From Firmicutes bacterium ADurb.Bin182 (GTDB lineage: Bacteria > Bacillota > Clostridia > Christensenellales > CAG-138), in NCBI GenBank assembly GCA_002070205.1, contig MWCU01000054.1, positions 11,968-75,967 on the forward strand: a stretch of DNA of 64,000 nucleotides, read 5' to 3'. Position numbers and translations under genes: made by a program. Positions within the stretch are counted from its first letter, which is position 1. Every line of letters starts with the position of its first letter. The notes under the pieces are model-generated. The model was given only the letters and a program-made list of their open reading frames with translations. It did no database searches and was not told the DNA's origin. Shown here piece by piece: positions 24,719-60,349 of this stretch.

Positions 24719-24853
24719 AGAGCTTCGCTCGCAGAGCGGCAGCTTAGCTGCCGTAGAGAACGCTTACGCGCGTCGAGAGGAAGCTTACGCTTCCGCAGAG
24801 TCGTAGAGAGCAAGCTGCGCTTGCGTATAGAATAAGCGCAAAGCATTTTATTC
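24719..24853 (+). repeat. tandem array of 21-25 bp AGAG-prefixed mini-hairpins
   Basis: Six to seven units. The arms differ but remain complementary: CGGCAGC/GCTGCCG, GGAAGC/GCTTCC, GCAAGC/GCTTGC, GAGC/GCTC. Confidence 0.8.
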
Positions 24854-24858
24854 AGACT

Positions 24859-25071
24859 GTCAAAAAACCCCTCCTAGGGATTATCAAGGGATCGGAACCC
24901 CTTGATTTACATTCCGGCTTCGGTGGCATGTACGTTGAAACGGATGAAATTCGTAAGAATTTCGTACATTGCACGCTTTGACGCTCGAAAATCTCTGATT
25001 TTAGTTCGTCAAAAATCTTGTTTTTGACTACGTGTAAATCTCGAAAAAGTCTGTACAGCCTTTTTCGACAC
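24859..25071 (+). repeat. structured dispersed element, copy A
   Basis: Shares ordered conserved boxes with 52337-52527 and with the reverse complement of 43589-43882. Confidence 0.85.
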
Positions 25072-25182
25072 GCTGCATAAACGCAAAGCGTTTATTCTCT
25101 ACTATTGCTCAACAATTGCTTTACGGCTGTGATTGCGCCATAGCGTAACTCGCAGTCTTTGCGGCTTTGCAGCTCCGGCGTA

Positions 25183-29274: not shown

Positions 29275-31278
29275 TTGAACAAAAAACTAAAAACGCCTTT
29301 AATATATCTTATTATTATCGTCGCAATCATAATAATGGCTACGGGTCTTGACCCTCAGCGGAAAACTCCGGAGGAATGGGATTATAAGCATTTCCTGAAC
29401 GCCGTAAGGGAAGATAAAGTCGCGGCCGCGGAACTCACCGTGATAGAACTGAGGGGGCTTCTGAAGGGCAGTGAGATAAAAAGGGAGGACTTCCCGAAAT
29501 CCTCTGATTTTGTGCTTACTGTTCCGAGCGAAGAAACGTTCAAGGCCGATATGGCGGTCATATATGCCGAAAAGCTCGGCAAATCACCCGATTTGGTTAC
29601 AGCTACCGATTATGCGTTCGACTATGCCAGCAAACAGGCGCCCAAAGCCGGTTTGTTCGAGGTGCTGCTCCCTTATCTTCTGATATTCGGCGCAATAGGA
29701 ATATTCTATTATTTCATGATGCAGCAGCAGGGCGGCGGCAACAAGGTCATGAGCTTCGGAAAGTCGCGCGCGCGCACGAATCTCGATTCCGCGAATAAGG
29801 TCACGTTCGATAATGTGGCGGGCGCAGACGAGGAAAAGGAAGAGCTTAAAGAAGTCGTTGAGTTTATGCGCAATCCCAAGCGATTTTCGCAGATGGGCGC
29901 AAGGATCCCCAAGGGCGTGCTGCTCGTTGGCCCTCCGGGAACCGGGAAAACTCTGCTTGCAAAGGCTGCCGCGGGAGAAGCGGATGTTCCGTTTTACTCC
30001 ATATCCGGTTCCGACTTTGTTGAAATGTTCGTAGGCGTCGGAGCATCGCGCGTACGCGACCTTTTTAACACGGTGAAGAAAACCGCTCCGGCAGTCGTCT
30101 TCATCGATGAAATAGACGCCGTCGGCCGTCAGCGCGGGGCGGGCCTCGGGGGTGGGCATGATGAGCGCGAGCAGACGCTTAACCAGCTTCTCGTCGAAAT
30201 GGACGGTTTCGCGCCCAATGAAGGAATAATCGTGATTGCGGCCACAAACAGGCCGGATATCCTTGACCCGGCTCTTTTAAGGCCGGGCAGGTTTGACAGG
30301 CAGATCACCGTCAACTACCCCGATGTCAAAGGGCGGGAAGACATTTTGAAGGTGCATGCGAAAAACAAACCTTTTGAGGACGACGTGGATCTTTCCGTTC
30401 TTGCGAAGCGTACCCCGGGTTTCACGGGCGCGGACCTTGAAAACGTGCTGAACGAGGCTGCCATACTCGCGGCAAGGTTCCACAAAAACAAAATCGGCAT
30501 GAACGAGCTTGAGGAGGCGATTACGCGCGTAGTCGTCGGTCCCGAGAAAAAGAGCCGCGTCATTACCGCGGAAGATAAAAAAATTACGGCGTATCATGAA
30601 TCGGGCCACGCTATCGTTGCAATGAAGCTGCCCGGGTGCGACCCCGTTCACGAGGTGAGCATAATCCCGCGCGGCCTTGCGGGCGGTTATACGATGACCC
30701 TTCCCAAGGAAGACATGAGGCATATGACGCGCGGCAAGATACTCGACGAGATAGCGATGCTTTTGGGCGGACGCGTAGCGGAGACTCTTGCGCTTGGAGA
30801 TATCAGCACGGGCGCTTATAACGATTTGCAGCGCGCGAGCGATCTTGCGAGGAAAATGGTAGTCGAGTACGGCATGAGCGAAGAAATAGGGCCGGTGTTT
30901 CTCGGCGGAAAAGAAGAAGTCTTTATCGCGAAGGACTGGGGTCATCAGCGTAATTTCTCCGAGGAGATCGCGGCGAAGGTGGACGCCGAGATAAAGCGCA
31001 TATTGGAAGAGCAGTTTAAAAGGGCGCGGGATGTCATCAACGCCGATATGGAAGCTCTCGGCCGTACCGCCGCGGCGCTCATTGAGTATGAGCGGGTTAC
31101 CGGAGAGGAATTCGAGGCCATCTATGAGGGCAGGGATGTAGAGATTTCGGCTTTCGTAACAAAACCGGCAGAGAAGACCGAAAAGGAAAACGAAACGCAA
31201 ACGCCGCCACCTGAACCGGAACAGCAAACCCCGGAAGTAATCGAAAAAGCGGAAGACGATTCAAATAAAGGCGATTAG
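29275..31278 (+). CDS. ftsH: ATP-dependent zinc metalloprotease FtsH
   Basis: Two N-terminal TM helices, Walker [12 protein letters not shown] region, HESGHA zinc site. TTG start behind GGGAGG. Confidence 0.95.
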
Positions 31279-31413
31279 GGGATTATTAAGGGGCCGAGCG
31301 GAAATTTTCGATTGCAGGCAAAACATGTACAATTTGAAGGGGTCCATCCGGACTTCTTCGATACTCAAACCCGGCCGTGCCGGGTTATTTTACGAACAGG
31401 AGCTGTCGGCCGC

Positions 31414-33575: not shown

Positions 33576-33702
33576 CGGACGAAATGGGCGGGCGATTCGT
33601 GAATCGCCCCTACATATAGGAATAACATGTCAGTACAATACAACATATTGTAGGGAACGACCCCCATGTCGTTCCGAATTTGTATTTCCGGGCAACCCTT
33701 TC
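33576..33702 (+). repeat. GGGCGATTC-hairpin element, copy 1
   Basis: Collinear with 60172-60349 except for one loop. Confidence 0.85.
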
Positions 33703-38984: not shown

Positions 38985-39025
38985 ACTCTAAGCGTGATTG
39001 TGACATACGATATACGATTGTTACA

Positions 39026-39631
39026 ATGAACTACAACGGCAGCGTGTACTTCTATGTTCGAAACGCGCAGAACGACATCGTAAGCATAGTTGATTCCACC
39101 GGCACTGTTGTGGTAACGTATAGCTATGATGCGTGGGGCAAGCTGTTTGACGTGTCCGGTGCTAAGGCAACTACATTAGGCAAAGACAATCCGTTCCGTT
39201 ACAGAGGGTATTACTTTGATTCGGAAACTGGATTGTATTATCTGCAGAGCAGGTATTATAACCCGGAATGGGGAAGGTTTATCAATGCGGATGTCTACGT
39301 TTCCACGGGACAAGGGTTATTGGCGAGCAATATGTTTGCGTATTGCGCTAATAATCCGGTTATGTTTTCCGATGAACATGGTTATCGTTATGCTATTTCT
39401 GCTGGTATAGGAGGACTTAATGCTGAAGATAGAGCTCGTAAAGAAATGAAGGATCTTCAGTCGCTCAAGGGGATAACTGGTTATGTAAACGATCAAAGAA
39501 AATTACCGGGTCTACAGCTTGGTTCAAAGGGCAATTTACCTAAACATGGGTGTGGGGTTGTTGCTGTACATAACGCCATTGTTTTAACTGGGAAAGAGTC
39601 TAATTTATATGATGTAATATATGTATTTTAA
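39026..39631 (+). CDS. orphan RHS-core tail + DEHGY junction + N-terminal part of a Cys-containing toxin domain
   Basis: Same core tail as 37009-37446. After the junction only 83 aa remain, containing Q...KHGCGVVAVHNAI. There is no SD before ATG 39026. Confidence 0.7.
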   Translation: MNYNGSVYFYVRNAQNDIVSIVDSTGTVVVTYSYDAWGKLFDVSGAKATTLGKDNPFRYRGYYFDSETGLYYLQSRYYNPEWGRFINADVYVSTGQGLLASNMFAYCANNPVMFSDEHGYRYAISAGIGGLNAEDRARKEMKDLQSLKGITGYVNDQRKLPGLQLGSKGNLPKHGCGVVAVHNAIVLTGKESNLYDVIYVF

Positions 39632-39944
39632 TGATGATTCAAATATAATTAAAAGAACTTTTGTAAATCCGATAGCGATTATGAAATATCTAAATAATCA
39701 AGGTTTAAATACATCGATTAATTGGTTCGATAATAAAGTATTAGATTCTGATGCATGTATTGTTATTTATAAATGGGAAATAAATGATAAATGGGATTTA
39801 CATTACCAGACTATAGCAAAAGTAAATTTCGGCGATGCAAATACTTATATAGCATTTAGTAAAACTGGTTTTTATACAAATCCCCAAGATTATATAAAGG
39901 AAAACGCTATAACAGAAATGTATGGGATTATTGGTATAAATTGA
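39621..39944 (+). CDS. 107-aa protein: either a small immunity protein or the frameshifted C-terminal half of toxin 2
   Basis: Overlaps the previous ORF by 11 nt in another frame. Contains WDLHYQTIAKV, which resembles a papain-fold His motif. Confidence 0.5.
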   Translation: MYFNDDSNIIKRTFVNPIAIMKYLNNQGLNTSINWFDNKVLDSDACIVIYKWEINDKWDLHYQTIAKVNFGDANTYIAFSKTGFYTNPQDYIKENAITEMYGIIGIN

Positions 39945-39957
39945 GGTGAATAGGATT

Positions 39958-41205
39958 ATGGCGCGTAAAATATTTAAATATTTGCTAATACTCATGATAT
40001 TGAATATAGTCGTGGGATGTACCGGTTGTGTACATAGTTATAAAAATTTTGAAGGAAGCCTTACTCGAAAAGTAATGCTAAAACAGAATGTTTACAGCAG
40101 TACCGGACAATTTGCCGCTTTCAATAAAGATCGAATATACTATATTTCACAAGAAGCAGATAATAATGGGATATACAGTATGAAGACTGATGGATCGGAT
40201 ATAAAGTTTGAGTTGGAAACTACAAAAGTCACGAGAATACAAGTTACAGATAACGAAATATATTATGTTGGTGTAAAAGAAGAAAGAGAGAATAAAAACA
40301 GGCTCTATGGACTTTATGAATTCGATAGATCCAATCCTGGTATAAAAAGTGTTAATTATACAGATATTCAAAGCGACGCAACAACAGAAGATGCATTTGT
40401 TTTTGCAAGTGGTACTATCGCAGTTATGGATGAAACAGGACTTTTTAGTACATTGCAACCCTCCACCGGAATTTTTGTTGTATCAAATAATACCAATTAT
40501 AATTTTGTCAAAAGGCCTGCTAAAATATCTGAAGACTTCTTTATTGCGGAATTTCAAGATTTCATTATCGTTAGCAGGTCATATCCTAATGCACATAAAA
40601 GTAAAAATATGATAAATGATTTCGCTAGCAGTCTTGTTGATGTACATAGCGGTGAATACGTAATGGATAATCTTTTTGAAGATGAGTTACGAGTTTTTTA
40701 TTCGGATGAAAAACAAATCATTAGTTCCCTAAATAATGTTTTAATTTTCATAGACCGCGATACACTGACAGAAAACAGAACGATAACTATTGGTAAAACT
40801 AATGAGAATCAGGAAGTAGCATATATTTTTAAAGATGGTGATATTTTATATGTAGTCATGAGAAACGATAATGATAGATATAACAGCAGCCTTTTCAGCG
40901 TGGATATATCTTCCGCGGAAGTAAAAAAGATAACATCGCTTAATGCTGGTAAATTAGTATTAAACATTGATAAAGGCAAGATTTATTGGGTAAAAGGTGC
41001 GAATATTTATTGTAATCTAGTTAATTCGCAGCGGATTGGGGACCGAGTAAGTAAAATTACAATCGATGAAACTATTACAGATAGTGATAATAGCATCGAA
41101 ATCGCCGGTAATTGGCTATTTATTTATAAAAACTCGGACATTAATGAACTTTGTTACAAAATTAACTTGGCGAATCTTCAAGTAATAAAGATTAATCGCC
41201 AATAG
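39958..41205 (+). CDS. DUF5050-like beta-propeller lipoprotein; putative immunity protein 2
   Basis: GAGGTG RBS. Lipobox VVGCTGC. Repeated ..IYY....D.NGIY.M..DGSD.. motifs. Confidence 0.6.
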   Translation: MARKIFKYLLILMILNIVVGCTGCVHSYKNFEGSLTRKVMLKQNVYSSTGQFAAFNKDRIYYISQEADNNGIYSMKTDGSDIKFELETTKVTRIQVTDNEIYYVGVKEERENKNRLYGLYEFDRSNPGIKSVNYTDIQSDATTEDAFVFASGTIAVMDETGLFSTLQPSTGIFVVSNNTNYNFVKRPAKISEDFFIAEFQDFIIVSRSYPNAHKSKNMINDFASSLVDVHSGEYVMDNLFEDELRVFYSDEKQIISSLNNVLIFIDRDTLTENRTITIGKTNENQEVAYIFKDGDILYVVMRNDNDRYNSSLFSVDISSAEVKKITSLNAGKLVLNIDKGKIYWVKGANIYCNLVNSQRIGDRVSKITIDETITDSDNSIEIAGNWLFIYKNSDINELCYKINLANLQVIKINRQ

Positions 41206-47447: not shown

Positions 47448-49583
47448 ATGAAAAAACTGTTATCGTTGATTTTGATTATTACCGTGATTTTCATCTTAAC
47501 GGGCTGCGAAAAGCCCGGGGGAATCGAAATCTGCGCCCGTTTTTTGAATCATATCAAAGCCGGGGAGTACGAAGCCGCATACGATATGCTGAGCGCGTCC
47601 TCACGAAATGATACGGGGGAACCTTTATCGAATAAAATCTCGAAAGACGAGTTTATAGGCAAATATAAAGCCATATTCGATGAACTTCAGATCACAGGCG
47701 TTTCTTATGAGATATTCGCGTTCAAGGAAGGCGAAATAATCACTACGGCCGACTATACCATGACTTATTTTTCGGGAAAAGCGGGCCCGATGACGGATGA
47801 ATACCGCATGTCCGCGATACGAGAGTCGGGTTCGTGGCGCATCGAATGGACTCCCTCTTATATATTCCCGCAAATGGAATGGGGGGATACGGTCAGAGTA
47901 GCGAAAACGCAAGCCAAAAGGGGAGAGATCCTCGCCGAAGGAATACCGCTCGCCGCCAATGTCAACGCGGTGTCGGTAATCGCGAAGCCTTCAAAGATCG
48001 AGGACGAAGATTTTGTTGTGCGCCAGGTTGCCGTCCTTTTGAATATGACGGAGCAGGCGGTCAAAAAAAAGCTGGACAGCGCCTATAATGATTTTACAAT
48101 AATCAAAAAGACGTATCCGGACGGTATCGACTCATTTACGGAGCAGCAGCTGCTTCTTATACCGGGCATCGGCATCGATAAGTCAAACTTCGGCTTGCTG
48201 CGCGATTATCCCGAAGGCTCGCTGCTTTCGCATATACTCGGCTACACGGGTTTCGCGTCGGAAGAGGATCTTAATTATATCAAAGACCGGTGGCTGGATG
48301 CTCAAGGCATGTACAGCGCCGATTCGATAATCGGGAAATCGGGCCTCGAGTACAGGTTCGAAAGGGAGCTTCGGGGTACGGACGGGAGCTTCACCTATAT
48401 CGCGGCGCCTGACGGAAGCGTGAAAAGGACGCTGTATACGCAGGAGGTTCAAGACGGCCTGGATATCGAGCTTACTGTCGATATCGAGCTTCAAAGAAGG
48501 GCGGAGGAGCTCCTCAGGCTGACGCTGTTCGATGACATTACTGCCGGCGCCGTCATCGTAATGGACCCTCTGACGGGCAGGGTGGATGCGATGTGCTCTT
48601 ATCCTTCCTACGACCTCAATCTGTTTACGCGCGGCATAAGCGAGGAAGACTATCAAAAACTGCTTGCTCAAAAGAACAAACCGCTGTTCAACCGGCTCAC
48701 GCAGGGTTTGTACCCACCCGGGTCATTATTCAAGCCGTTTACAGCGGCCGCTGCGCTGGAGAGCGGGGCGATTACGCCGGACTACGTTTTTTCGGAACCC
48801 ATCGTCGACGATTACTGGATACCGTCCAAATACGGGCATTGGCAGTGGTCCGCAATAAAAAGGGCCGAAATCAAACACAGGGAAATGCCGCTCAACCTTC
48901 ACAGCGCAATTCTGCACTCGGATAATATCTATTTCGCCAACGCGGCTCTTCTCACCGGCGCCGGGGACTTTACTGAATTTGTAAAAGCCGCCGGTCTGGG
49001 AGAGGCAGTGCCCTTTGAGCTCAGCGTCAGCAGATCGCAGCTGTTGAACGAGAGCTCGCAGATGAATCTCATGCTGCTTGCGGATAGCGGCTACGGGCAG
49101 GGCGAGGTGCTGATCACGCCCCTGCAGATGGCGTCTTCGTTCTGCGCGTTCGCGAACGGGGGAAATATACCTGTTCCTTTTATCGTTAAGGCTGTTTACC
49201 GCACGGAAGGAACAGAATATACTGCGGAATATGAAACTCAGCCCCAAAACTGGAAGGAAGGGGTCATCCGCAAAAGGACGATAGACGTGCTTGAGCCCAT
49301 GATGAAAGACGTCGTCGACCCCAAATTCAACGGCACGGGCAACAAGCTTAGGGTCGGCAGCTGCAAAATCGCCGGCAAGACGGGAACCGCACAGATAGGG
49401 AACGACAGGAACCGTGAAATAGCCTGGTTTGCGGGTTATCGAACCGGAGTTGACGATGAGGACGCGCGGCTTGTGCTTGTCATGCTGGAGGTCCCGGCCG
49501 GCGAGGAATACAACGACTTTAAGTTTGATATCGCGAGGAAGCTGCTTAAGATGGATAAACAACAGCAGACGGAAGGGGATTGA
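47448..49583 (+). CDS. class B penicillin-binding protein (transpeptidase) with NTF2-like N-terminal domain
   Basis: Lipobox-like LTGC. SxxK (SLFK), SxN (HSDN) and KTGTA motifs. Confidence 0.85.
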   Translation: MKKLLSLILIITVIFILTGCEKPGGIEICARFLNHIKAGEYEAAYDMLSASSRNDTGEPLSNKISKDEFIGKYKAIFDELQITGVSYEIFAFKEGEIITTADYTMTYFSGKAGPMTDEYRMSAIRESGSWRIEWTPSYIFPQMEWGDTVRVAKTQAKRGEILAEGIPLAANVNAVSVIAKPSKIEDEDFVVRQVAVLLNMTEQAVKKKLDSAYNDFTIIKKTYPDGIDSFTEQQLLLIPGIGIDKSNFGLLRDYPEGSLLSHILGYTGFASEEDLNYIKDRWLDAQGMYSADSIIGKSGLEYRFERELRGTDGSFTYIAAPDGSVKRTLYTQEVQDGLDIELTVDIELQRRAEELLRLTLFDDITAGAVIVMDPLTGRVDAMCSYPSYDLNLFTRGISEEDYQKLLAQKNKPLFNRLTQGLYPPGSLFKPFTAAAALESGAITPDYVFSEPIVDDYWIPSKYGHWQWSAIKRAEIKHREMPLNLHSAILHSDNIYFANAALLTGAGDFTEFVKAAGLGEAVPFELSVSRSQLLNESSQMNLMLLADSGYGQGEVLITPLQMASSFCAFANGGNIPVPFIVKAVYRTEGTEYTAEYETQPQNWKEGVIRKRTIDVLEPMMKDVVDPKFNGTGNKLRVGSCKIAGKTGTAQIGNDRNREIAWFAGYRTGVDDEDARLVLVMLEVPAGEEYNDFKFDIARKLLKMDKQQQTEGD

Positions 49584-50555: not shown

Positions 50556-52136
50556 ATGAAAAATTACATTGAAAACCTCGGGATCCGTCACCCCAAAGCG
50601 GTTTATCGCAACCTTACCCCGGCAAGGCTCACTGAAGCGGCGCTGCTCAGAGGCGAGGGAAAGCTGTCCGAGACCGGCGCGCTGGTCGTAGAGACGGGGA
50701 AATATACCGGGCGCTCTCCCAATGACCGCTTCGTGGTGGATTATCCCTCCATTCACGGCGAGATCGACTGGGGAAAAGTCAATGTACCGATCTCTCCCGA
50801 AAAGTCGGACGCGATTTTCAAAAAGATAGCCGGTTATCTTCAGGGCAAAGAAATTTTCGTGTTTGACGGATTTGCGGGAGCAAATGAAAAATACGCGCTT
50901 TCCGTTCGCGTTATAAACGAGCTGGCAAGCCAGAATTTATTCATCCACCAGCTCCTCATCCGCCCGACTGAGGAACAGCTGAAAAACTTCGAGCCCGGTT
51001 TCCTAATAATAGCGGCGCCCGGATTCAAATGCGACCCGGAAGCGGACGGCGTCAATTCGGAAGCCGCGATAATCGTGGATTTTGAAAAGAAGATGGTTTT
51101 GATAGCTGGCAGCCAGTACTCCGGCGAAATAAAAAAGAGCGTGTTTTCTGTGATGAACTACATCCTGCCTCACAAAAACGTGCTCCCGATGCACTGCTCC
51201 GCAAATATCGGATATAAAGGCGATACCGCTCTGTTTTTCGGATTATCGGGCACGGGGAAAACGACTCTTTCCGCCGACCCCGACCGCAAGCTTATAGGCG
51301 ACGACGAGCATGGGTGGAGCGAGGACGGAATATTCAATTTCGAAGGCGGATGCTACGCCAAGTGCATAAATCTTTCAAAAGAGCATGAACCCCAGATTTG
51401 GAATGCGATAAAATTCGGAGCGCTCGTTGAAAACGTCGTGATGGACGAAACGACCCGCAGGCTGGATTTTGACGACGGCGGCCTCACCGAGAATACGCGC
51501 ACGGGATATCCCGTGGATTTTATTCCGAACTGCGCCATCCCGGGCGTGGGCGGACATCCGAAAACCGTCATTTTTCTTACCGCGGATGCGTTCGGTGTGC
51601 TTCCCCCGGTATCAAAGCTTGATAAAAACATGGCGATGTATCATTTCATATCGGGATATACGAGCAAGCTCGCGGGCACCGAGCGCGGAATAGTCGAGCC
51701 GCAGACGACGTTTTCGACCTGCTTCGGAGCGCCGTTCCTGCCGCTTCATCCGTCCGTATACGCCGAAATGCTCGGCAAAAAGATCGATGAGCACGATTCT
51801 AATGTTTATCTCATAAATACCGGATGGTCCGGCGGCCCCTACGGAGTGGGCAAGCGCATGAGCATAAAGCATACGCGCGCAATGGTCACGGCCGCTCTCA
51901 ACGGCGATCTTGAAAAGGGCGAATTCGTTTTGGACCCCGTATTCAACGTTTTGGTCCCGACGGCGTGCCCCGGCGTTCCCTCCGATGTTCTAAGCCCGAG
52001 GAAGGTATGGGCGGACAAGGTAGCCTATGACAGGCAGGCGAAAGACCTGGCGGCACGCTTCGTAAAGAACTTCAAGCAGTACACGGGCATGAAGCAGGAG
52101 ATAATAGACGCGGGACCTAAAGTAAACATTGATTAA
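50556..52136 (+). CDS. pckA: phosphoenolpyruvate carboxykinase (ATP)
   Basis: [19 protein letters not shown] and GGCYAK motifs. Confidence 0.95.
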
Positions 52137-52244
52137 GTCGGGCACATCACTGGTTCTTTTTTCGCCCGGGTTCGTTAAAAATGCTTGAAATAGCTCTGCT
52201 ATTACTGCGCTTTTTGCCTTGACGGACAAAAAAATTCCTCGCTG

Positions 52245-52331
52245 TGCCGACAACCCTCCCATTAATCAGTGTTTACTAAAGCGTAATTGATTGAAACACG
52301 TTCAAGAGGCAATGCAAACATGCATTGCCTC
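52245..52331 (+). repeat. ~87-bp direct repeat R1 (ends in the GGCAATGCA hairpin), copy 1
   Basis: TGCCGACAACCCTCCC..TAATCAGTG...AAGCGTAATT...AGAGGCAATGCAAACATGCATTGCCTC. A diverged copy lies at 54189-54273. Confidence 0.8.
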
Positions 52332-52336
52332 AGATC

Positions 52337-52527
52337 GTCAAAAAACCCTCATGGGGATTATCAAGGGGTCGAAATCCCTTGATTTCCATTCCGGCTTCGG
52401 CGGCATGTACGTCGAAACGGATGAAATCCGTATGGATTTCGTACTTTGCATGCTTTGCCGCCGGAAATCTCTGATTTTAGGCAAAGCATGAAAATCTCGA
52501 AAAAGTCTGCAATGACTTTTTCGACAC
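52337..52527 (+). repeat. structured dispersed element, copy B
   Basis: See copies A and C. Confidence 0.85.
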
Positions 52528-52532
52528 TCTCG

Positions 52533-52554
52533 GGCAATGCAAACCTGCATTGCC
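52533..52554 (+). repeat. second copy of the GGCAATGCA..TGCATTGCC hairpin
   Basis: Differs from 52309-52330 by one loop base. Confidence 0.85.
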
Positions 52555-52665
52555 TTTTATGATAGTGCCGGTTAAGTTAATCGCCTTTTCTATGATTCAG
52601 GAGCATTTTACGTTTGCAAACAGATCGAAATGTATGTTTGTTTAAAATCGTTTGTTATCATATAT

Positions 52666-52694
52666 GTTGACAAATGGTACGAAGTATGCCATAA
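52666..52694 (+). promoter_or_regulatory. sigma70-like promoter of the abiE operon
   Basis: TTGACA, 17-nt spacer, CATAAT. Confidence 0.5.
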
Positions 52695-52731
52695 TATCGT
52701 GTCAATTGTAAACAGAAGGGTGGAGATGCAG

Positions 52732-53334
52732 ATGACGTCTATGGATATTATGGATAACCTGTCAACCGTCTCCCGCCAAAACAACGGGTTGATCCTCACT
52801 AAAGCAGCTGAAGCAAACGGAGTTTCGAGAGCAATGTTATCTAAGCTTTGCAAGAAAGGAACGCTGTTTCGTATCGCTGCGGGTCAGTATGTGTTTGCTT
52901 CCGAGCTCGGCGATGAGATGCTGTCGTTAAGCCGGCGTTCGGGACTGATCGTTTTTTCTCATGAGAGTGCTTTGTTCCTGAACGGCATTTCGGAGAGGAC
53001 ACCATTCGAGCATACGGTCACGATTCCAAGCTCGAAAAAACTTGCAGCGTCCATAAGCGAACACTGCAAGGTATATTATGTCAAAGATAAACTGGCACAC
53101 TTGGGAAAAACAACATTAAAGACTACCCTGGGTAATCCGGTTCCGGCATATGACCCGGAACGAACTATCTTAGATATCATCCGGAGTCGGAGAAGAATTG
53201 CTGAAGAGACCTTACTCTCATCGCTGAAACTGTACGCAGCAAGCCCAAAAAAAAATCTGTTGAATCTACGCGCTTACGCCGAAGCCTTTGGAATGACAGA
53301 AAAGGTCAGAAGGTATATGGAGGTGTTATTATGA
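52732..53334 (+). CDS. type IV TA system AbiEi-family antitoxin/transcriptional regulator
   Basis: N-terminal wHTH (GLILTKAAEANGVSRAMLSKLCKKGTLFRIAAGQYVF) followed by ..FSHESALFLNG. ATG 52732 sits 6 nt after GGTGGAG. Confidence 0.8.
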   Translation: MTSMDIMDNLSTVSRQNNGLILTKAAEANGVSRAMLSKLCKKGTLFRIAAGQYVFASELGDEMLSLSRRSGLIVFSHESALFLNGISERTPFEHTVTIPSSKKLAASISEHCKVYYVKDKLAHLGKTTLKTTLGNPVPAYDPERTILDIIRSRRRIAEETLLSSLKLYAASPKKNLLNLRAYAEAFGMTEKVRRYMEVLL

Positions 53335-54158
53335 GCGCGAACGCTATGAGCCTGAAAGCGAAGATACGCAGCCTTGCCAAGCAGAAAAGTATCCCCGCAC
53401 AAGTAATTCTGCAAAACTATATGTTCGAGCGATTTCTCGTCCGGCTTTCTGCATCAGTTTATAAAGATAAATTTATACTCAAGGGTGGAATGCTGGTGGC
53501 TGCGATTGTCGGTCTTGAAAACCGCGCGACAATGGATTTAGATACTACGATAAAAGACTTGCCGTTGACGCCTGAAAGCATCAAGACAGCTTTGCAGGAG
53601 ATAATCGGTATTGACATGGATGATGAAGTGACTTTTACCATCGGAAACATTTTGCACATCCGGGATAACGATGTTTATGGCGGATATCGCGTAATGATAA
53701 GCGTGCGATACGAAACGATTCTCACGCCGCTATCGATCGATGTATCCACTGGCGATGTCATCACGCCTCGCGCGGTAAATTATATCTTCAGAGGAATATT
53801 CGACGATGCTCTGACCTTTGATCTTTGGGCGTATAACATTGAAACCGTTATGGCGGAAAAGGTGGAAACTATACTGAGCCGCAGTGTATTCAACACCCGA
53901 CCGAGAGATTTTTACGATGTATATATCCTTTGTACAACGCAGCAGTTCGACAAGCAGGTGTTCCGGGATGCATTTTGTGCAACTGCAGTTCGCCGCGGAA
54001 CTGCTGAACAGATTAGAGATATTCCGTCTTCGCTTAAAACCCTTACAGCAAGCAATGAATTGCGAAATCTATGGGACGGGTTCAGGAGGCAATTTGCTTA
54101 CGCTGAAGATATAACCTATGACATGATAATCGGTAAATTGACAGAACTGCTAAATTGA
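53331..54158 (+). CDS. AbiEii/AbiGii-family nucleotidyltransferase toxin (DUF1814)
   Basis: 4-nt overlap with abiEi. FILKGGMLVA...RATMDLDT motif. Confidence 0.85.
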   Translation: MSANAMSLKAKIRSLAKQKSIPAQVILQNYMFERFLVRLSASVYKDKFILKGGMLVAAIVGLENRATMDLDTTIKDLPLTPESIKTALQEIIGIDMDDEVTFTIGNILHIRDNDVYGGYRVMISVRYETILTPLSIDVSTGDVITPRAVNYIFRGIFDDALTFDLWAYNIETVMAEKVETILSRSVFNTRPRDFYDVYILCTTQQFDKQVFRDAFCATAVRRGTAEQIRDIPSSLKTLTASNELRNLWDGFRRQFAYAEDITYDMIIGKLTELLN

Positions 54159-54188
54159 TGTTTTCGCGTGTCCTATACAATAGGAATC

Positions 54189-54273
54189 TGCCGACGACCC
54201 TCCCTATAATCAGTGCTTGCTGAAGCGTAATTATTAATGCAAGATAAGAGGCAATGCAAACCGCATTGCCTCT
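54189..54273 (+). repeat. direct repeat R1, copy 2 (with third hairpin copy)
   Basis: See 52245-52331. Confidence 0.8.
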
Positions 54274-54309
54274 TATAATATTTAAATGCGGCAAATGCTT
54301 GACTCGGTT

Positions 54310-54352
54310 TAGTCTATAATGATAGACTGAATATGGTCGATTACGATAGACT
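54310..54352 (+). promoter_or_regulatory. candidate BlaI-type operator (TAGTCTA-N6-TAGACT dyad plus an extra GATAGACT box)
   Basis: Dyad at 54310-54328 and a third half-site at 54345-54352, immediately upstream of the repressor gene. Confidence 0.35.
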
Positions 54353-54369
54353 GGGAGCCGGAGGCAGGT

Positions 54370-54735
54370 ATGGAAAGGAATTTAAAGCTTTACGACGCTG
54401 AATATCGTATGGTAAATATCGTTTGGAAAAACGAGCCCCTGCACTCCAGAGAACTCACAGAGCTTTGCGCGAAGCAGCTCGGATGGAAGCGCAGCACTAC
54501 TTATACCGTATTGAAAAAGCTATGTGACCGAGGTATTTTAAAGAATGATTCAGCAATCGTCACATCTCTTGTTTCGCAAGGCGAGGTGCAGCGCTATGAG
54601 GCGGAAGCGGTCATGGGAAAAAGCTTTGGCGGCTCTTTGCCTAAGTTTATAACGGCATTTTTGGATGATAAAAAGCTGTCGGCCGAGCAAGTCTCGGAAA
54701 TCAAACGCCTGATCGACAGATATAAGGAGGATTGA
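54370..54735 (+). CDS. BlaI/MecI/CopY-family transcriptional repressor
   Basis: 121-aa winged helix (WKRSTTYTVLKKLCDRGIL). Translationally coupled to the M56 gene. Confidence 0.85.
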   Translation: MERNLKLYDAEYRMVNIVWKNEPLHSRELTELCAKQLGWKRSTTYTVLKKLCDRGILKNDSAIVTSLVSQGEVQRYEAEAVMGKSFGGSLPKFITAFLDDKKLSAEQVSEIKRLIDRYKED

Positions 54736-56834
54736 TCATGTTTGAGAACGTTTTTATTGCAGTACTCAACATGAGCATTACCGCGTCCTATGCCGCTGTA
54801 TTCATAATTCTTTTGCGTCTGCTTTTAAAAAAAGCTCCAAAGTCAATTTCATATGCACTGTGGTCTGTGGTTTTGCTGCGGGCAATATGCCCCGTTTCTT
54901 TCTCATCTGTAATCAGCTTGTTTGGCAGGCTCGGTACGGTTAATACAGCAGCGGGTAATGGGACGATTCGCTATATTCCGGAAAATATGGGCATGAGCGC
55001 CGTACCTGCTGTTAATGTTGGAATTGCAAACGTGAACATTGTTATTAACGAGAGTCTCTCCGCTGCCACTCCCACGAGCAGTGTTAATCCCATGCAGCTC
55101 ATAATAACCGCCGGTATGATCATTTGGTTGATCGGTGCTATGGCAATGATGGCGTACAGCATCATTGCCTATATAGTTCTAAGGCGCAGAATATCCACTG
55201 CCGTACACATTGAAAACAATATTTATGAAAGTGACCTTATCAGCACAGCATTTGTATGCGGTTTCATCAAACCGCGGATATACCTGCCCGTTGGAATGGA
55301 TGAAAACAGCAGGAGTTTTGTGTTGGCTCATGAGCGGATCCATATACGGCGGCGCGATCATCTCATCAAGCCGGCTGCGTTTTTGGTTTTGTCGATGCAT
55401 TGGTTCAATCCGTTTATGTGGGCAGCGTATTTTTTAATGGGAAAAGATATGGAAATGAGCTGTGACGAGCGTGTTTTAAAAAGCATCGGGCTAGATGAAA
55501 AAGCAAATTACGGCACAGCATTGCTGACTCTTTCGGCAGGGCGGCGGATCATAGCAGGAAGCCCGTTGGCGTTTGGTGAGAGCAATACCAGATCGCGCGT
55601 GAAAAACGTGCTCAATTATAGAAAACCGGCATTTTGGATGGCTTTCTTCGCAATAGCACTGGTCGCAGCTGTCGGTGTGAGTCTGCTTGCAAATCCAAAA
55701 ACGCCTGAACCGACTGACCTTGCGCCGGAAATTCCCGCCGTACCTGACGCAAGTCCGGGCGAAGAGCAACCGGCAACGCCTTTCCCAACGGTCACCACCG
55801 ATATTCCCGATGGTTTTATAATAAACGCAGCCGGTGCTGCCGACTCTGAGGTGTCCGCCATATTCGCCGTTGAAAAGAACAGCCTTTACATCCAAACGCT
55901 TGCCGAACAGGACATTCACTTATATATCTATGCGCGGCAGGATTGGCATGACGGTGCGCTTATATTGGCGGGGGTATCCCCCAGGGGCGAGACCGCTCCC
56001 GAGCTTTATTTCATAAACAGCAGCGGCGCGGTCATGCGCACGAGCGGCTCCGACTGTTGGAGCATCAACTATACCCATTATGAAGGCGAAACCATCGTGT
56101 TTGGAAAATCTTTCGCGTGGGATAACGGACCGCTTGCCACAGATGAAGTAAGGGCAGAATTTTGGGGCACAGAAGCCGTATCCGTGCCGATGGAATATAT
56201 TCCGAATGAAGATAATGAAATAACGCGCGGCTTTATTTGCACGACACCCTCCGTAACATGGCTAAAATCGCTTAAAATATTAAGAGACGGTAAAACTGTC
56301 ACGGATGATGGGAGCGGCCAGTTCATTTACAGTCCGGAAAACGAGCCGTGGTATGGCGAGGCGGAGAGCATTCGCAACCGAACGCGTTACGTATGGATGT
56401 CCGATGCACTGCCTGCCGCTCAAAAAATAAACGTTTTAGATTTCTTTGGCGGTTACCCGTCGGTCACAGTCGAAACGGGAGTTGCCGCCCAACCGAGCAT
56501 TACCCGTGCGCTTACATATTGGCCGGATTGTTCGGCGCATAAGGGCATATCCCCCGATATATGGCACAGCAACAACGGCTTATACGATAGGGTCAGCGTA
56601 AAGGCGGGAAGTAAAATAACAGCTGAGGTATCGGCGGTGACCGATGATTCTCAAGACCATCAGAAAGTATCGGACCTTGCCATATCCAAGATATACTGGG
56701 CAGACTTATCCATAAACAGCGATGATTTGTGCATAACCGAAGGCGAGCTTGTAAGCCCCGCAAAAAAGGGATATTATGTACTTGTTCTGTATACGGACTA
56801 TGGATACTTCTCTCAAACAGTGAGAGTCGTATGA
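54732..56834 (+). CDS. BlaR1-like M56 peptidase signal transducer with a non-canonical ~370-aa extracellular domain
   Basis: Four TM helices. HEXXH motif LAHERIHIRRRDH. The C-terminal domain shows no SxxK/KTG penicillin-binding motifs. Confidence 0.75.
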   Translation: MIMFENVFIAVLNMSITASYAAVFIILLRLLLKKAPKSISYALWSVVLLRAICPVSFSSVISLFGRLGTVNTAAGNGTIRYIPENMGMSAVPAVNVGIANVNIVINESLSAATPTSSVNPMQLIITAGMIIWLIGAMAMMAYSIIAYIVLRRRISTAVHIENNIYESDLISTAFVCGFIKPRIYLPVGMDENSRSFVLAHERIHIRRRDHLIKPAAFLVLSMHWFNPFMWAAYFLMGKDMEMSCDERVLKSIGLDEKANYGTALLTLSAGRRIIAGSPLAFGESNTRSRVKNVLNYRKPAFWMAFFAIALVAAVGVSLLANPKTPEPTDLAPEIPAVPDASPGEEQPATPFPTVTTDIPDGFIINAAGAADSEVSAIFAVEKNSLYIQTLAEQDIHLYIYARQDWHDGALILAGVSPRGETAPELYFINSSGAVMRTSGSDCWSINYTHYEGETIVFGKSFAWDNGPLATDEVRAEFWGTEAVSVPMEYIPNEDNEITRGFICTTPSVTWLKSLKILRDGKTVTDDGSGQFIYSPENEPWYGEAESIRNRTRYVWMSDALPAAQKINVLDFFGGYPSVTVETGVAAQPSITRALTYWPDCSAHKGISPDIWHSNNGLYDRVSVKAGSKITAEVSAVTDDSQDHQKVSDLAISKIYWADLSINSDDLCITEGELVSPAKKGYYVLVLYTDYGYFSQTVRVV

Positions 56835-57895: not shown

Positions 57896-58164
57896 GCCGC
57901 GCACCCGTCCTTTGACAAAGCGCCTCCGGGCGGTATGCAGGCAGGCGGCTCCTTCCGGGCGTCCCCGCGGCACACCGCCTTTTCCGCTTAATGCTGCTTC
58001 CGTCAGGACCTGACATGCTTCACGGACGGCGATTGCACGGGACCCGGATATCAACGCTCCTTGCCTGCGCCGGACCCCACAGGCACCCGCCGGGGGACGG
58101 GACTTCAGCCCTGCTGTAGCGGATTGCAGGTACAGGGCACCGCTGTCTCCCCGCTTAGCGCGGC
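57896..58164 (-). ncRNA. ffs: signal recognition particle RNA, long (Alu-domain-containing) Firmicutes type
   Basis: Minus strand contains the domain IV core GTCAGGTCCTGACGGAAGCAGCATTAAG and an Alu-like 5' part GGTGCCCTGTACCTGCAATCCGCTACAGCAGGGCTGAA. The termini GCCGCGC/GCGCGGC pair. Confidence 0.85.
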
Positions 58165-60171: not shown

Positions 60172-60349
60172 TCCGGAAATGGGCGGGCGATTCGTGAATC
60201 GCCCCTACATATAGGTAAACATGTCAGCGAAACACAATATATTGTAGGGAACGATCTGGGGCGTCTTGTTTTCTCCCTATAAACATTAATCAAAGAAAAA
60301 AGACGCTCAAAGTGTCGTTCCGAATTTGTATTTCCGGACAAACCCTTTC
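60172..60349 (+). repeat. GGGCGATTC-hairpin element, copy 2 (with 60-nt insertion in one loop)
   Basis: See 33576-33702. Has a 9-bp terminal inverted repeat TCCGGAAAT / ATTTCCGGA. Confidence 0.85.

What the first reader, a model, noticed from the sequence alone, without database searches (positions are those of the whole stretch)
52245..54273. AbiEi/AbiEii module and element B nested inside a duplicated pckA-downstream segment
An ~87-bp segment (TGCCGAC.ACCCTCCC..TAATCAGTG...AAGCGTAATT...AGAGGCAATGCA..GCATTGCCTC) occurs at 52245-52331 and, diverged, at 54189-54273. Between the two copies lie element B, a third hairpin copy, a TTGACA/CATAAT promoter and the abiEi-abiEii pair, whose genes overlap by 4 nt. 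The simplest reading is that the original pckA terminator region served at least twice as an insertion site, once for the abortive-infection/TA module and once for the structured element. No integrase or transposase accompanies the module.
Basis: partly seen in the sequence, partly recalled or inferred. Interest (0 to 1): 0.6.

Follow-up and report, generated by a model that had tools for sequence, protein, structure and literature searches.

The report
AbiE defence operon between duplicated terminators
A normal-looking two-gene AbiE phage-defence/toxin-antitoxin operon sits between pckA and blaI, bracketed by two diverged copies of a ~95-base terminator segment, one of which was later split by a small repeated structured element; the defence system is ordinary, and only the way it was inserted is mildly unusual.

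Summary
R1a (52245-52331) and R1b (54189-54273) are homologous (72/87, E=4e-16). The hairpin occurs three times, the TTGACA/CATAAT promoter is there, and abiEi/abiEii overlap by ATGA.

The genes are a bona fide, intact AbiE pair. PADLOC gives 5e-57 and 5e-95, Pfam AbiEii 7e-42, and the solved S. agalactiae AbiEi:AbiEii complex 9HLO matches at 5e-26 and 1.6e-47.

The nested-insertion reading is partly supported.
- Removing element B plus one hairpin copy restores a contiguous 95-nt R1 that aligns with R1b.
- B is a multi-copy structured element. Two of its copies are each flanked by a duplicated local terminator hairpin.
- DNA similarity to abiE operons elsewhere is confined to 52613-54158, inside the R1 pair.
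- No mobility gene lies within about 10 kb.

An empty site could not be found. The organism (MAG ADurb.Bin182) has no close relative in any collection, and every assembly of it carries abiE here. R1 is also not simply "the pckA terminator": its 5' arm is an inverted repeat of a remodelled pckA 3' end.

Closest precedents are "insertion with long target duplication" of restriction-modification genes, and IS1630-type duplication of terminator hairpins. This is a known system in a modestly interesting context.

The parts
50556..52136 (+). pckA (ATP-dependent PEP carboxykinase), with an atypical C-terminus ...GPKVNID*
   Evidence: Pfam PEPCK_ATP 8e-226. The listed closest homologs end GPK/GPR plus A, G, E or GE.
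52121..52145 (+). Left arm of a long inverted repeat: the last 16 nt of pckA including the stop codon, plus GTCGGGCAC
   Evidence: 15/16 complementary to 52262-52277 (I4). Alignment reached by 0 of 2000 shuffles; duplex -30 kcal/mol against -16.2 +/- 3.3 for shuffles. Appears as the closing stem in the MFE fold.
52155..52240 (+). 'Element A' core: a conserved ~90-nt motif enclosed by the inverted repeat
   Evidence: 77% identical to L031:20505-20593 and 79% to Subdoligranulum variabile OY725836.1. No Rfam family.
52245..52331 (+). R1a, the left repeat copy: 5' arm 52245-52277, spacer, and hairpin H1 52306-52331, which has no T-tract after it
52332..52527 (+). Element B, copy 1: 5' extension AGATCGTCAAAAAACCC..., a core of hairpins in series (58 pairs in 8 helices in the tested structure), and its own terminator-like hairpin 52497-52524
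   Evidence: Other copies at 24854-25071(+), 43882-43589(-) and a truncated one at 31277-31364(+). Homologs in L008, L013, L017, L019 and L116. 58 pairs, 83% of cells paired, 15 pairs with changes on both sides, 0 of 500 shuffles reach this. No Rfam hit.
52532..52565 (+). Hairpin H3 plus T-tract TTTATGATAG. It is the duplicated copy of H1 and carries the original 3' tail of R1
   Evidence: 22/23 identical to H1, 0 of 1000 shuffles. Scored as terminator-like. The tail aligns with the R1b tail.
52608..52731 (+). abiE promoter/operator: -35 at 52667-52672, -10 at 52690-52695, and three ~23-nt motif copies at 52611-52633, 52664-52686 and, inverted, 52695-52716
   Evidence: Promoter scan. Motif copies at 52611-52633 and 52664-52686 and the core promoter align with L086, L092, L091 and L088; the inverted copy at 52695-52716 was read by eye. 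DNA similarity to other abiE modules begins at 52613.
52732..53334 (+). abiEi (200 aa): antitoxin and predicted autorepressor
   Evidence: PADLOC AbiEi 5.1e-57. PDB 9HLO_A and 6Y8Q E~5e-26 over residues 15-200. Pfam AbiEi_4 scores 24.5 bits against a cut-off of 25.
53331..54158 (+). abiEii (275 aa): DUF1814 nucleotidyltransferase toxin
   Evidence: Pfam PF08843 7.4e-42. PADLOC 5.2e-95. PDB 9HLO_B 1.6e-47 over residues 6-273. KGG51-53, T67 (equivalent to phospho-acceptor T65) and D69xD71 are conserved, read from that alignment.
54189..54282 (+). R1b, the right repeat copy: 5' arm 54189-54222, hairpin H2 54244-54276, tail TTATAATA. It is the likely abiEii terminator
   Evidence: The arm is complementary to abiEii 54045-54092.
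54299..56834 (+). blaI promoter (54299-54328), blaI (54370-54735) and blaR1 (54732-56834). This is the downstream neighbour, not part of the module
   Evidence: Pfam Penicillinase_R 4.7e-19 and Peptidase_M56 5.2e-53. Promoter scan.

Best explanation
An intact AbiE operon of about 1.6 kb (52608-54188) was acquired horizontally and now sits in the pckA-blaI intergenic region.

What the operon does, by homology to S. agalactiae AbiE. This is inferred, not shown here.
- AbiEii is a DUF1814 nucleotidyltransferase. It arrests growth by adding pyrimidine nucleotides to tRNAs, which blocks translation.
- AbiEi binds AbiEii and neutralises it, by occluding the active site and inducing auto-phosphorylation at the residue equivalent to T67.
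- AbiEi is also predicted to repress the operon's own promoter through the ~23-nt repeats that overlap the -35 and flank the -10.
- Phage infection is expected to release the toxin and abort the infection.

How it got there.
- The operon carries no recombinase. It is bracketed by two diverged direct copies of a ~95-nt host segment (R1 = 5' arm, spacer, terminator hairpin, T-rich tail).
- The most economical reading is an 'insertion with long target duplication'. The left copy terminates pckA and the right copy now terminates abiEii.
- Later, element B inserted between the hairpin and the T-tract of the left R1 copy. B is a ~196-nt structured, multi-copy element. Its insertion duplicated the 23-24-nt hairpin.

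Shown here: sequence identity, homology, the repeat anatomy and the clean excisability of B. Inferred: the order of events, the duplication mechanism and all biochemical activities.
For: AbiE identity. Catalytic and phospho-acceptor residues were read from the alignment against T65 reported in bioRxiv 10.64898/2026.01.19.700257.

Operator-like repeats overlapping the -35 and flanking the -10 match the two 23-bp inverted repeats bound by AbiEi (PMC7319586). Two of the three copies and the core promoter are shared with four other abiE promoters.

Modularity and mobility: AbiEii homologs of 67-82% identity sit in unrelated neighbourhoods, next to PemK, TniB/rve transposition genes, or housekeeping genes. 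Their DNA similarity to the window is confined to 52613/52665-54158.

Composition: GC3 is 0.48-0.50 for abiE against 0.64 for pckA.

No integrase or transposase among the ORFs from 41960 to 63811, and no tRNA gene.

The R1 pair is significant and unique.

B as a later insertion:
- The composite R1 aligns over 95 nt once B and H3 are removed.
- H1 has no T-tract, while H3 has one.
- H1 and H3 are 22/23 identical.
- B copy 2 is flanked by a different duplicated hairpin. Both duplications reach 0 of 1000 shuffles.

Precedents: restriction-modification genes inserted with 46-423-bp target duplications and no mobility genes, and IS1630 duplicating 19-26 bp (PMC2853133).
Against: - No empty site exists in any collection, so a single-copy ancestral state is unproven.
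- The R1 copies are only 82% identical, against roughly 90-98% in published long target duplications.
- Conservation along R1 is patchy, which suggests constraint or gene conversion rather than simple decay.
- The GC of the cassette is only at the 16th percentile of the window. blaI and the first ~700 nt of blaR1 are similarly AT-rich.
- Other abiE cassettes show no long flanking repeats.
- The R1a arm belongs to an inverted repeat with the pckA 3' end, so this region has a more complex history than one duplication.
Confidence: 0.6

Rival explanations
1. The R1 duplication has nothing to do with how abiE arrived. A terminator module was duplicated locally, by slippage, unequal exchange or gene conversion, either before or after abiE landed between or beside the copies. 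Both copies were then kept because each terminates a transcription unit.
For: The hairpin and T-rich tail are the best-conserved parts (24/26 and 7/8), as expected for selected terminators. 18% divergence overall suggests an old duplication. Other abiE cassettes lack such repeats.
Against: It needs two independent events at exactly the cassette boundaries. R1 is otherwise unique in all sequence examined. The non-hairpin 5' 44 nt is also 86% conserved, which terminator function alone does not explain.
Confidence: 0.17
2. abiE entered on a small circular or linear DNA that already carried an R1-like sequence from a related donor. It integrated by a single crossover, either homologous or by a recombinase acting in trans. 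The two copies are then attL/attR-like hybrids of host and donor sequence, which explains the 18% divergence from the outset.
For: The divergence is too high for a recent exact duplication. No recombinase is needed in cis. Furuta et al. list site-specific recombination as one class of direct repeats flanking defence genes (PMC2853133).
Against: No R1-like sequence is attached to any other abiE cassette or found anywhere else. There is no integrase or tRNA target nearby. There is no identical core within R1 longer than the 16-nt AAGAGGCAATGCAAAC.
Confidence: 0.12
3. R1 is a functional 3'-UTR RNA module, not a passive scar. Its 5' arm folds back onto the 3' end of the upstream ORF and is followed by a terminator. 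Two copies are maintained by selection, each co-adapted to its own gene.
For: The R1a arm pairs with pckA 52121-52145, and the R1b arm with abiEii 54045-54092. Both beat shuffled arms (4/300 and 0/300). Cross-pairings are weaker, and the three arm differences GTG[T/C]TT[A/G]CT[A/G] each match the cognate partner.
Against: Against an empirical null of real 38-mers, the duplex energies fall only at the 27th and 4.5th percentiles. There are only two sequences, so no true covariation test is possible. Other abiE operons have no such pairing. No Rfam family matches.
Confidence: 0.1
4. The R1 similarity is a chance resemblance between two AT-rich terminators.
For: None beyond the short length.
Against: E=4e-16 over 87 nt, and 44 nt of non-hairpin sequence at 86% identity.
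Confidence: 0.01

Closest known systems
AbiE (AbiEi/AbiEii, also annotated AbiGI/AbiGII) of Streptococcus agalactiae and Lactococcus. An abortive-infection toxin-antitoxin system, classed as type IV and proposed in 2026 to be type VII.
   Same: Bicistronic operon with overlapping genes. AbiEi has a COG5340-type fold (E~5e-26 to 6Y8Q/9HLO_A). AbiEii is a DUF1814 nucleotidyltransferase (E=1.6e-47 to 9HLO_B) with KGG, the T67 phospho-acceptor and DxD conserved. ~23-nt repeats overlap the promoter.
   Different: The aligned sequences are clearly diverged from the S. agalactiae proteins. The host is an uncultured anaerobic-digester Bacillota MAG. The promoter has three motif copies, one upstream and direct, rather than one inverted pair 3 bp apart. 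No activity was tested.
Insertion with long target duplication of restriction-modification genes (Nobusato et al. 2000; Furuta, Abe and Kobayashi 2010, PMC2853133)
   Same: A small defence-gene unit with no mobility gene, flanked by direct repeats longer than 30 bp that are otherwise unique in the genome and lie at gene ends or terminators.
   Different: The cargo is a toxin-antitoxin/Abi system, not an RM system. The repeats are 82% identical, against about 90-98% in published cases. No empty-site genome is available, and that is the defining evidence in those studies.
IS1630 of Mycoplasma fermentans (IS30 family), which targets and duplicates inverted repeats of 19-26 bp. Its preference for terminator hairpins is from my own memory of Calcutt et al. 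1999; the 19-26-bp duplication is stated in the PMC2853133 Fig. 1 legend.
   Same: Element B copies 1 and 2 are each flanked by a 22-24-nt duplication that is a whole local terminator-like hairpin, with a different sequence at each site.
   Different: B is ~196 nt and non-coding. It has only a weak terminal inverted repeat (GTCAAAAAAC / GTCGAAAAAG). Its hairpin structure is conserved through covariation, with G-U pairs on one strand. No IS30-type transposase was seen in the 64-kb window or about 10 kb of flanks. Copies 3 and 4, and the homologs in other genomes, show no such duplication.
Integron gene cassettes and attC sites, and CIME/att-flanked islets
   Same: A small, self-promoted TA cassette bracketed by similar structured ~90-nt sites, with no recombinase in cis.
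   Different: R1 has no RYYYAAC/GTTRRRY core sites and does not fold end-to-end like attC (inspection). There are only two copies, no array, and no integrase within about 10 kb.

Membership tests
AbiE toxin-antitoxin / abortive infection system | Toxin of the DUF1814 (PF08843, COG2253) nucleotidyltransferase family with an intact catalytic motif | tested here: met
   Pfam 144 bits against a cut-off of 22.5. PADLOC 5.2e-95. 9HLO_B 1.6e-47, full length, with KGG51-53, T67 and D69xD71 aligned.
AbiE toxin-antitoxin / abortive infection system | Upstream two-domain AbiEi (COG5340) antitoxin with an N-terminal winged helix-turn-helix | tested here: met
   PADLOC AbiEi 5.1e-57, full length. 6Y8Q and 9HLO_A ~5e-26 over residues 15-200. 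Pfam AbiEi_4 and AbiEi_1 fall just below their cut-offs (24.5/25 and 19.2/22.2). NCBIfam TAA_AbiEi is far below its cut-off.
AbiE toxin-antitoxin / abortive infection system | Bicistronic operon, antitoxin first, genes adjacent or overlapping | tested here: met
   ATGA overlap at 53331-53334 and a single upstream promoter.
AbiE toxin-antitoxin / abortive infection system | ~23-bp repeats in the promoter that AbiEi binds for autoregulation | tested here: inconclusive
   Three ~23-nt motif copies, two of them inverted around the -10. The two direct copies and the core promoter align with four related promoters (the inverted copy was read by eye). Literature criteria come from PMC7319586. Binding was not tested.
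AbiE toxin-antitoxin / abortive infection system | Toxicity neutralised by the antitoxin; phage resistance by abortive infection | not testable with these tools
   Needs expression and phage-challenge experiments.
Insertion with long target duplication (Kobayashi group) | Insert flanked by direct repeats longer than 30 bp, with no mobility gene in the insert | tested here: met
   95-nt repeats. The insert holds only abiEi and abiEii.
Insertion with long target duplication (Kobayashi group) | A related genome with an empty site holding one copy of the repeat | tested here: inconclusive
   Searched GTDB genomes, the 5.8-billion-protein collection, exact-protein contig look-ups and JGI metagenomes. 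No close relative and no empty site were found.
Insertion with long target duplication (Kobayashi group) | The repeat sequence is otherwise unique in the genome | tested here: met
   Only two copies in the 64-kb window plus about 10 kb of flanks. The rest of the genome could not be read.
IS1630-like hairpin-duplicating transposition (for element B) | Target duplication of about 19-26 bp that consists of an inverted repeat or terminator, of variable sequence | tested here: met
   Copy 1: 52308-52330 / 52533-52555, 22/23. Copy 2: 24832-24853 / 25077-25097, 19/22. Each reaches 0 of 1000 shuffles. Copies 3 and 4 do not show it.
IS1630-like hairpin-duplicating transposition (for element B) | IS30-family transposase and matching terminal inverted repeats | tested here: not met
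   No transposase among the ORFs scanned. Only about 8 of 11 terminal bases are complementary (inspection). A trans-acting enzyme elsewhere in the genome cannot be excluded.
Integron cassette / attC | R''/R' core sites (RYYYAAC...GTTRRRY) and an end-to-end imperfect hairpin | tested here: not met
   The core sites are absent on inspection. The fold shows only a terminal terminator hairpin.

The most novel reading that the evidence does not exclude
The locus records a hairpin- or terminator-directed way of adding DNA that needs no recombinase in cis.

(i) Element B would be an undescribed family of ~190-nt structured RNAs, with hairpins in series, covariation and no Rfam family. It lands immediately 3' of terminator hairpins and can duplicate the whole hairpin.

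(ii) R1 would be a portable 3'-UTR module whose arm re-pairs with the 3' end of whichever ORF lies upstream: the pckA stop region, and abiEii codons ~239-254. It would have been duplicated to cap the newly acquired defence operon.
Probability: 0.15. Interest if true: 0.55.

Novelty: new member of a known kind. Interest (0 to 1): 0.3.

Why it matters
AbiE itself adds nothing new, because it is one of the most widespread defence/TA systems.

The modest value lies in the context.
- It is a candidate case outside restriction-modification systems of a defence operon inserted with a long target duplication and no mobility gene. That supports the idea that small defence islets can spread by a recombinase-independent route.
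- It exposes element B. This multi-copy, structurally conserved element has no Rfam family, sits just after terminator hairpins in several Clostridia, and twice duplicated the hairpin it landed beside. That behaviour is otherwise described only for IS1630.

Neither point can be settled without closer genomes or experiments.

Tried and rejected
- **Empty-site comparison.** The GTDB scan with PckA gave 80 loci at 80% identity or less, with no ksgA or blaI synteny. A search of 5.8 billion proteins found the nearest PckA at 81%. Exact-protein look-ups of PckA, AbiEii and BlaI returned only contigs of the same species, all with abiE.
- **R1 pattern scan of JGI metagenomes.** It gave 16 hits, none homologous beyond the pattern.
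- **R1 as part of the abiE cassette.** Rejected. Other cassettes share no sequence beyond the stop codon and have no long flanking repeats.
- **A longer duplication reaching upstream of R1.** Rejected (p~0.2).
- **Known RNA families.** Rfam found only SRP RNA elsewhere in the window, and only noise in 52100-54400.
- **tRNA or tmRNA integration target.** None in the window.
- **attC or integron reading.** Rejected on inspection and by folding.
- **R1 as a coding remnant.** A short frame PTTLP(L/I)IS..* is shared by both copies, but it has no start codon or upstream ORF, so I did not pursue it.
- **Covariance model of element B.** I used nhmmer instead.
- **Plasmid and phage BLAST of the cassette.** Only partial, 65-77% identical AbiEii matches.
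- **Literature search for B's conserved 13-mer.** Nothing relevant.
- **Composition as proof of foreign origin.** Weak: the cassette sits only at the 16th percentile.
Full report
**1. The observation**

The region was read directly and checked with repeat finding and alignment.
- R1a (52245-52331) and R1b (54189-54273) align at 82.8% over 87 columns. BLAST gives E=4e-16 against 1.24 Mb of collected loci.
- The left edge of the repeat is sharp at TGCCGAC.
- The hairpin GGCAATGCAAAC(N)TGCATTGCC is present three times: H1 52306-52331, H3 52532-52555 and H2 54244-54276. None is expected by chance.
- The promoter TTGACA-17-CATAAT lies at 52667-52695.
- abiEi and abiEii overlap by ATGA.

**2. The genes**

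abiEii (53331-54158):
- Pfam AbiEii at 7.4e-42.
- PADLOC AbiEii at 5.2e-95.
- The solved S. agalactiae toxin, 9HLO chain B, at 1.6e-47 over residues 6-273.

Read from that alignment, KGG51-53 and D69xD71 are conserved. So is T67, the equivalent of the phospho-acceptor T65 described in bioRxiv 10.64898/2026.01.19.700257.

abiEi (52732-53334):
- It falls just under the Pfam cut-offs (24.5 bits against 25).
- It matches PADLOC AbiEi at 5.1e-57.
- It matches the AbiEi structures 6Y8Q and 9HLO_A at about 5e-26.

Upstream there are three copies of a ~23-nt motif, TGTT[TG][AG]CAA..G.ACGA.AT:
- 52611-52633, an upstream direct copy.
- 52664-52686, overlapping the -35.
- 52695-52716, inverted, just after the -10.

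The two direct copies and the core promoter align with four related abiE loci; the inverted copy was identified by eye. This fits the 23-bp repeats that AbiEi binds (PMC7319586).

The pair is therefore an intact, apparently self-regulated AbiE system of a known kind. By homology, it most likely works as follows.
- The toxin adds pyrimidine nucleotides to tRNAs and stops translation.
- The antitoxin binds the toxin, induces its auto-phosphorylation and represses the promoter.

None of this was tested here.

**3. Organism and the empty-site test**

The exact PckA and AbiEii proteins belong to the MAG 'Firmicutes bacterium ADurb.Bin182' and to GCA_022706985.1.

- The next-best PckA among 5.8 billion proteins is 81% identical.
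- The 80 GTDB loci found with PckA are at most 80% identical. None has ksgA or blaI next to pckA.
- Every contig that carries this PckA, AbiEii or BlaI shows the same arrangement or breaks inside element B.
- A scan of JGI metagenomes with an R1 pattern gave only chance hits.

**4. Is abiE an insert?**

For:
- AbiEii homologs of 67-82% identity are abundant and sit as two-gene modules in unrelated neighbourhoods. Examples are beside a PemK toxin, beside TniB/rve transposition genes, and among housekeeping genes.
- Their DNA similarity to the window runs from 52613 or 52665 to the abiEii stop codon and no further. R1a, R1b, the 45 nt at 52566-52610 and the 30 nt after the stop codon all lie outside this shared stretch.
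- The ORFs scanned between 41960 and 63811 include no integrase or transposase. The window has no tRNA gene.
- GC3 is 0.48-0.50 for abiE and 0.64 for pckA.

Against, or weak:
- blaI and blaR1 are also lower in GC3 (0.51-0.53).
- The cassette sits only at the 16th percentile of window GC.
- Other abiE cassettes have no long flanking direct repeats.

The anatomy matches the published class 'insertion with long target duplication'. There, restriction-modification genes are flanked by otherwise unique 46-423-bp direct repeats, with no mobility gene (PMC2853133). Two caveats apply. The R1 copies are much more diverged, at 82%. The defining empty-site comparison is also missing.

**5. Element B and the third hairpin**

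B (52332-52527) is a repeated element.
- Other window copies lie at 24854-25071(+) and 43882-43589(-). A truncated copy lies at 31277-31364(+), right after the ftsH stop codon.
- Homologs occur in other Clostridia MAGs (L008, L013, L017, weakly L019) and in one IMG/VR contig, L116.

All full-length copies fold into the same series of hairpins, with extra hairpins inserted at fixed points. On a 7-sequence alignment:
- 83% of cells are paired.
- 15 of 58 pairs change on both sides.
- No shuffle out of 500 reaches this, and slid controls collapse.
- Frequent G-U pairs favour the strand that is '+' at 52352-52532.

No Rfam family matches.

Evidence that B inserted into the left R1 copy:
- Removing 52332-52556 (B plus H3) leaves a contiguous sequence that aligns with R1b over 95 nt, including the tail TTATGATA/TTATAATA.
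- H1 has lost its T-tract, which now follows H3.
- H1 and H3 are 22/23 identical.
- B copy 2 is flanked by a different duplicated hairpin: ATAAGCGCAAAGCATTTTATTC and ATAAACGCAAAGC-GTTTATTC. Each duplication reaches 0 of 1000 shuffles.
- Copies 3 and 4, and the homologs elsewhere, lack such duplications. Most still lie just 3' of a hairpin.

The only precedent I know for duplicating whole terminator-like inverted repeats of 19-26 bp is IS1630. The size range is in the PMC2853133 Fig. 1 legend. The targeting of terminators is from my own memory of Calcutt et al. 1999. No matching transposase was seen.

Since R1b lacks B, B most likely inserted after the R1 duplication.

**6. R1 is not just a pckA terminator**

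- The R1a arm (52243-52277) is an inverted repeat of pckA's last 16 nt plus GTCGGGCAC. It is 15/16 complementary, no shuffle out of 2000 reaches the alignment score, and the duplex is -30 kcal/mol against -16 +/- 3 for shuffles.
- This pairing closes a stem around a ~90-nt 'element A' core. That core has 77-79% matches in two distant Clostridia (L031 and Subdoligranulum variabile), each with its own closing stem.
- PckA here ends GPKVNID*. The listed closest homologs (76-81% identical) end GPK/GPR plus A, G, E or GE. The gene's last codons were therefore replaced.
- The R1b arm is complementary to abiEii 54045-54092. About 3 of 2000 shuffles reach the alignment score, and the duplex is -37.9 against -21.8 +/- 3.5. 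The three arm differences between R1a and R1b each match the cognate partner.
- Against an empirical null of real 38-mers, these energies are only at the 27th and 4.5th percentiles. With two sequences there is no proper covariation test.
- Other abiE operons lack such pairing.
- The sequences upstream of the two R1 copies are not homologous.

I record this as unexplained. It is compatible with a functional 3'-UTR module, or with a more complex rearrangement history.

**7. Verdict**

The finding is real. The functional assignment is right. The 'nested' picture is well supported for element B and plausible, but unproven, for abiE. The defence system is a new member of a known kind.

The unusual aspects are:
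- the long, diverged flanking duplication with no mobility gene;
- the hairpin-duplicating structured element B;
- the arm-to-ORF complementarity of both R1 copies.

These deserve a note rather than a headline.

Noticed in passing
window 52332-52527(+), 24854-25071(+), 43882-43589(-), 31277-31364(+, truncated); L008:3339-3156(-), L013:9057-8868(-), L017:7680-7902(+), L116:3398-3182(-): Element B is a multi-copy element of about 190-300 nt with a conserved multi-hairpin structure: 15 of 58 pairs change on both sides, and G-U pairs favour one strand. Extra hairpins are inserted at fixed points, and it ends in its own terminator-like hairpin. It has no Rfam family. It usually lies just 3' of a gene's terminator hairpin, and two copies are flanked by a 22-24-nt duplication of that hairpin.
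   Followed up: partly
window 52121-52277; L031:20456-20730; L111 (Subdoligranulum variabile OY725836.1):1480-1600: The 'element A' core (52155-52240) is a ~90-nt motif, 77-79% identical across distant Clostridia. Each copy is closed by its own stem (YTTTTTGCGCC / GGCACAAAAA) and, in the window and L031, by a further long inverted repeat of unrelated sequence. It has no Rfam hit. In the window, the outer stem includes the pckA stop codon.
   Followed up: partly
window 52122-52136: PckA carries an atypical C-terminal extension, GPKVNID*. The listed closest homologs (76-81% identical) end GPK/GPR plus A, G, E or GE. This suggests the last codons were supplied by the inverted-repeat element downstream.
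   Followed up: yes
window 33581-33660 and 60176-60254: Another ~80-nt direct repeat, 91% identical, lies in two unrelated intergenic regions. It contains the hairpin GGGCGATTCGTGAATCGCCC followed by CTACATATAGG. It is probably a further small interspersed repeat family.
   Followed up: no
window 24720-24853: A run of short GC-rich hairpins separated by GTAGAGA-like spacers lies immediately upstream of element B copy 2. The last hairpin is the one duplicated on the other side of B. Tandem Repeats Finder does not call it.
   Followed up: no
window 47448-49583 and 54370-56834: A PBP with a MecA_N domain (PBP2a-like architecture) lies 4.8 kb upstream of blaI-blaR1, separated from it by ksgA, pckA and abiE. 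A regulatory link is possible but was not examined.
   Followed up: no
window 57897-58163 (-): Bacterial large SRP RNA (Rfam RF01854, 193 bits). This is the only Rfam family above its gathering score in the window.
   Followed up: yes
window ~39000-40600: The lowest-GC stretch of the window: a 1.58-kb sliding window reaches a minimum GC of 0.306, against a window mean of 0.484. Not examined.
   Followed up: no
L002 end / L003 start (Logan SRR29782968): A short-read assembly of the same species breaks inside element B, at window 52416/52421. This is consistent with B being repetitive genome-wide.
   Followed up: yes
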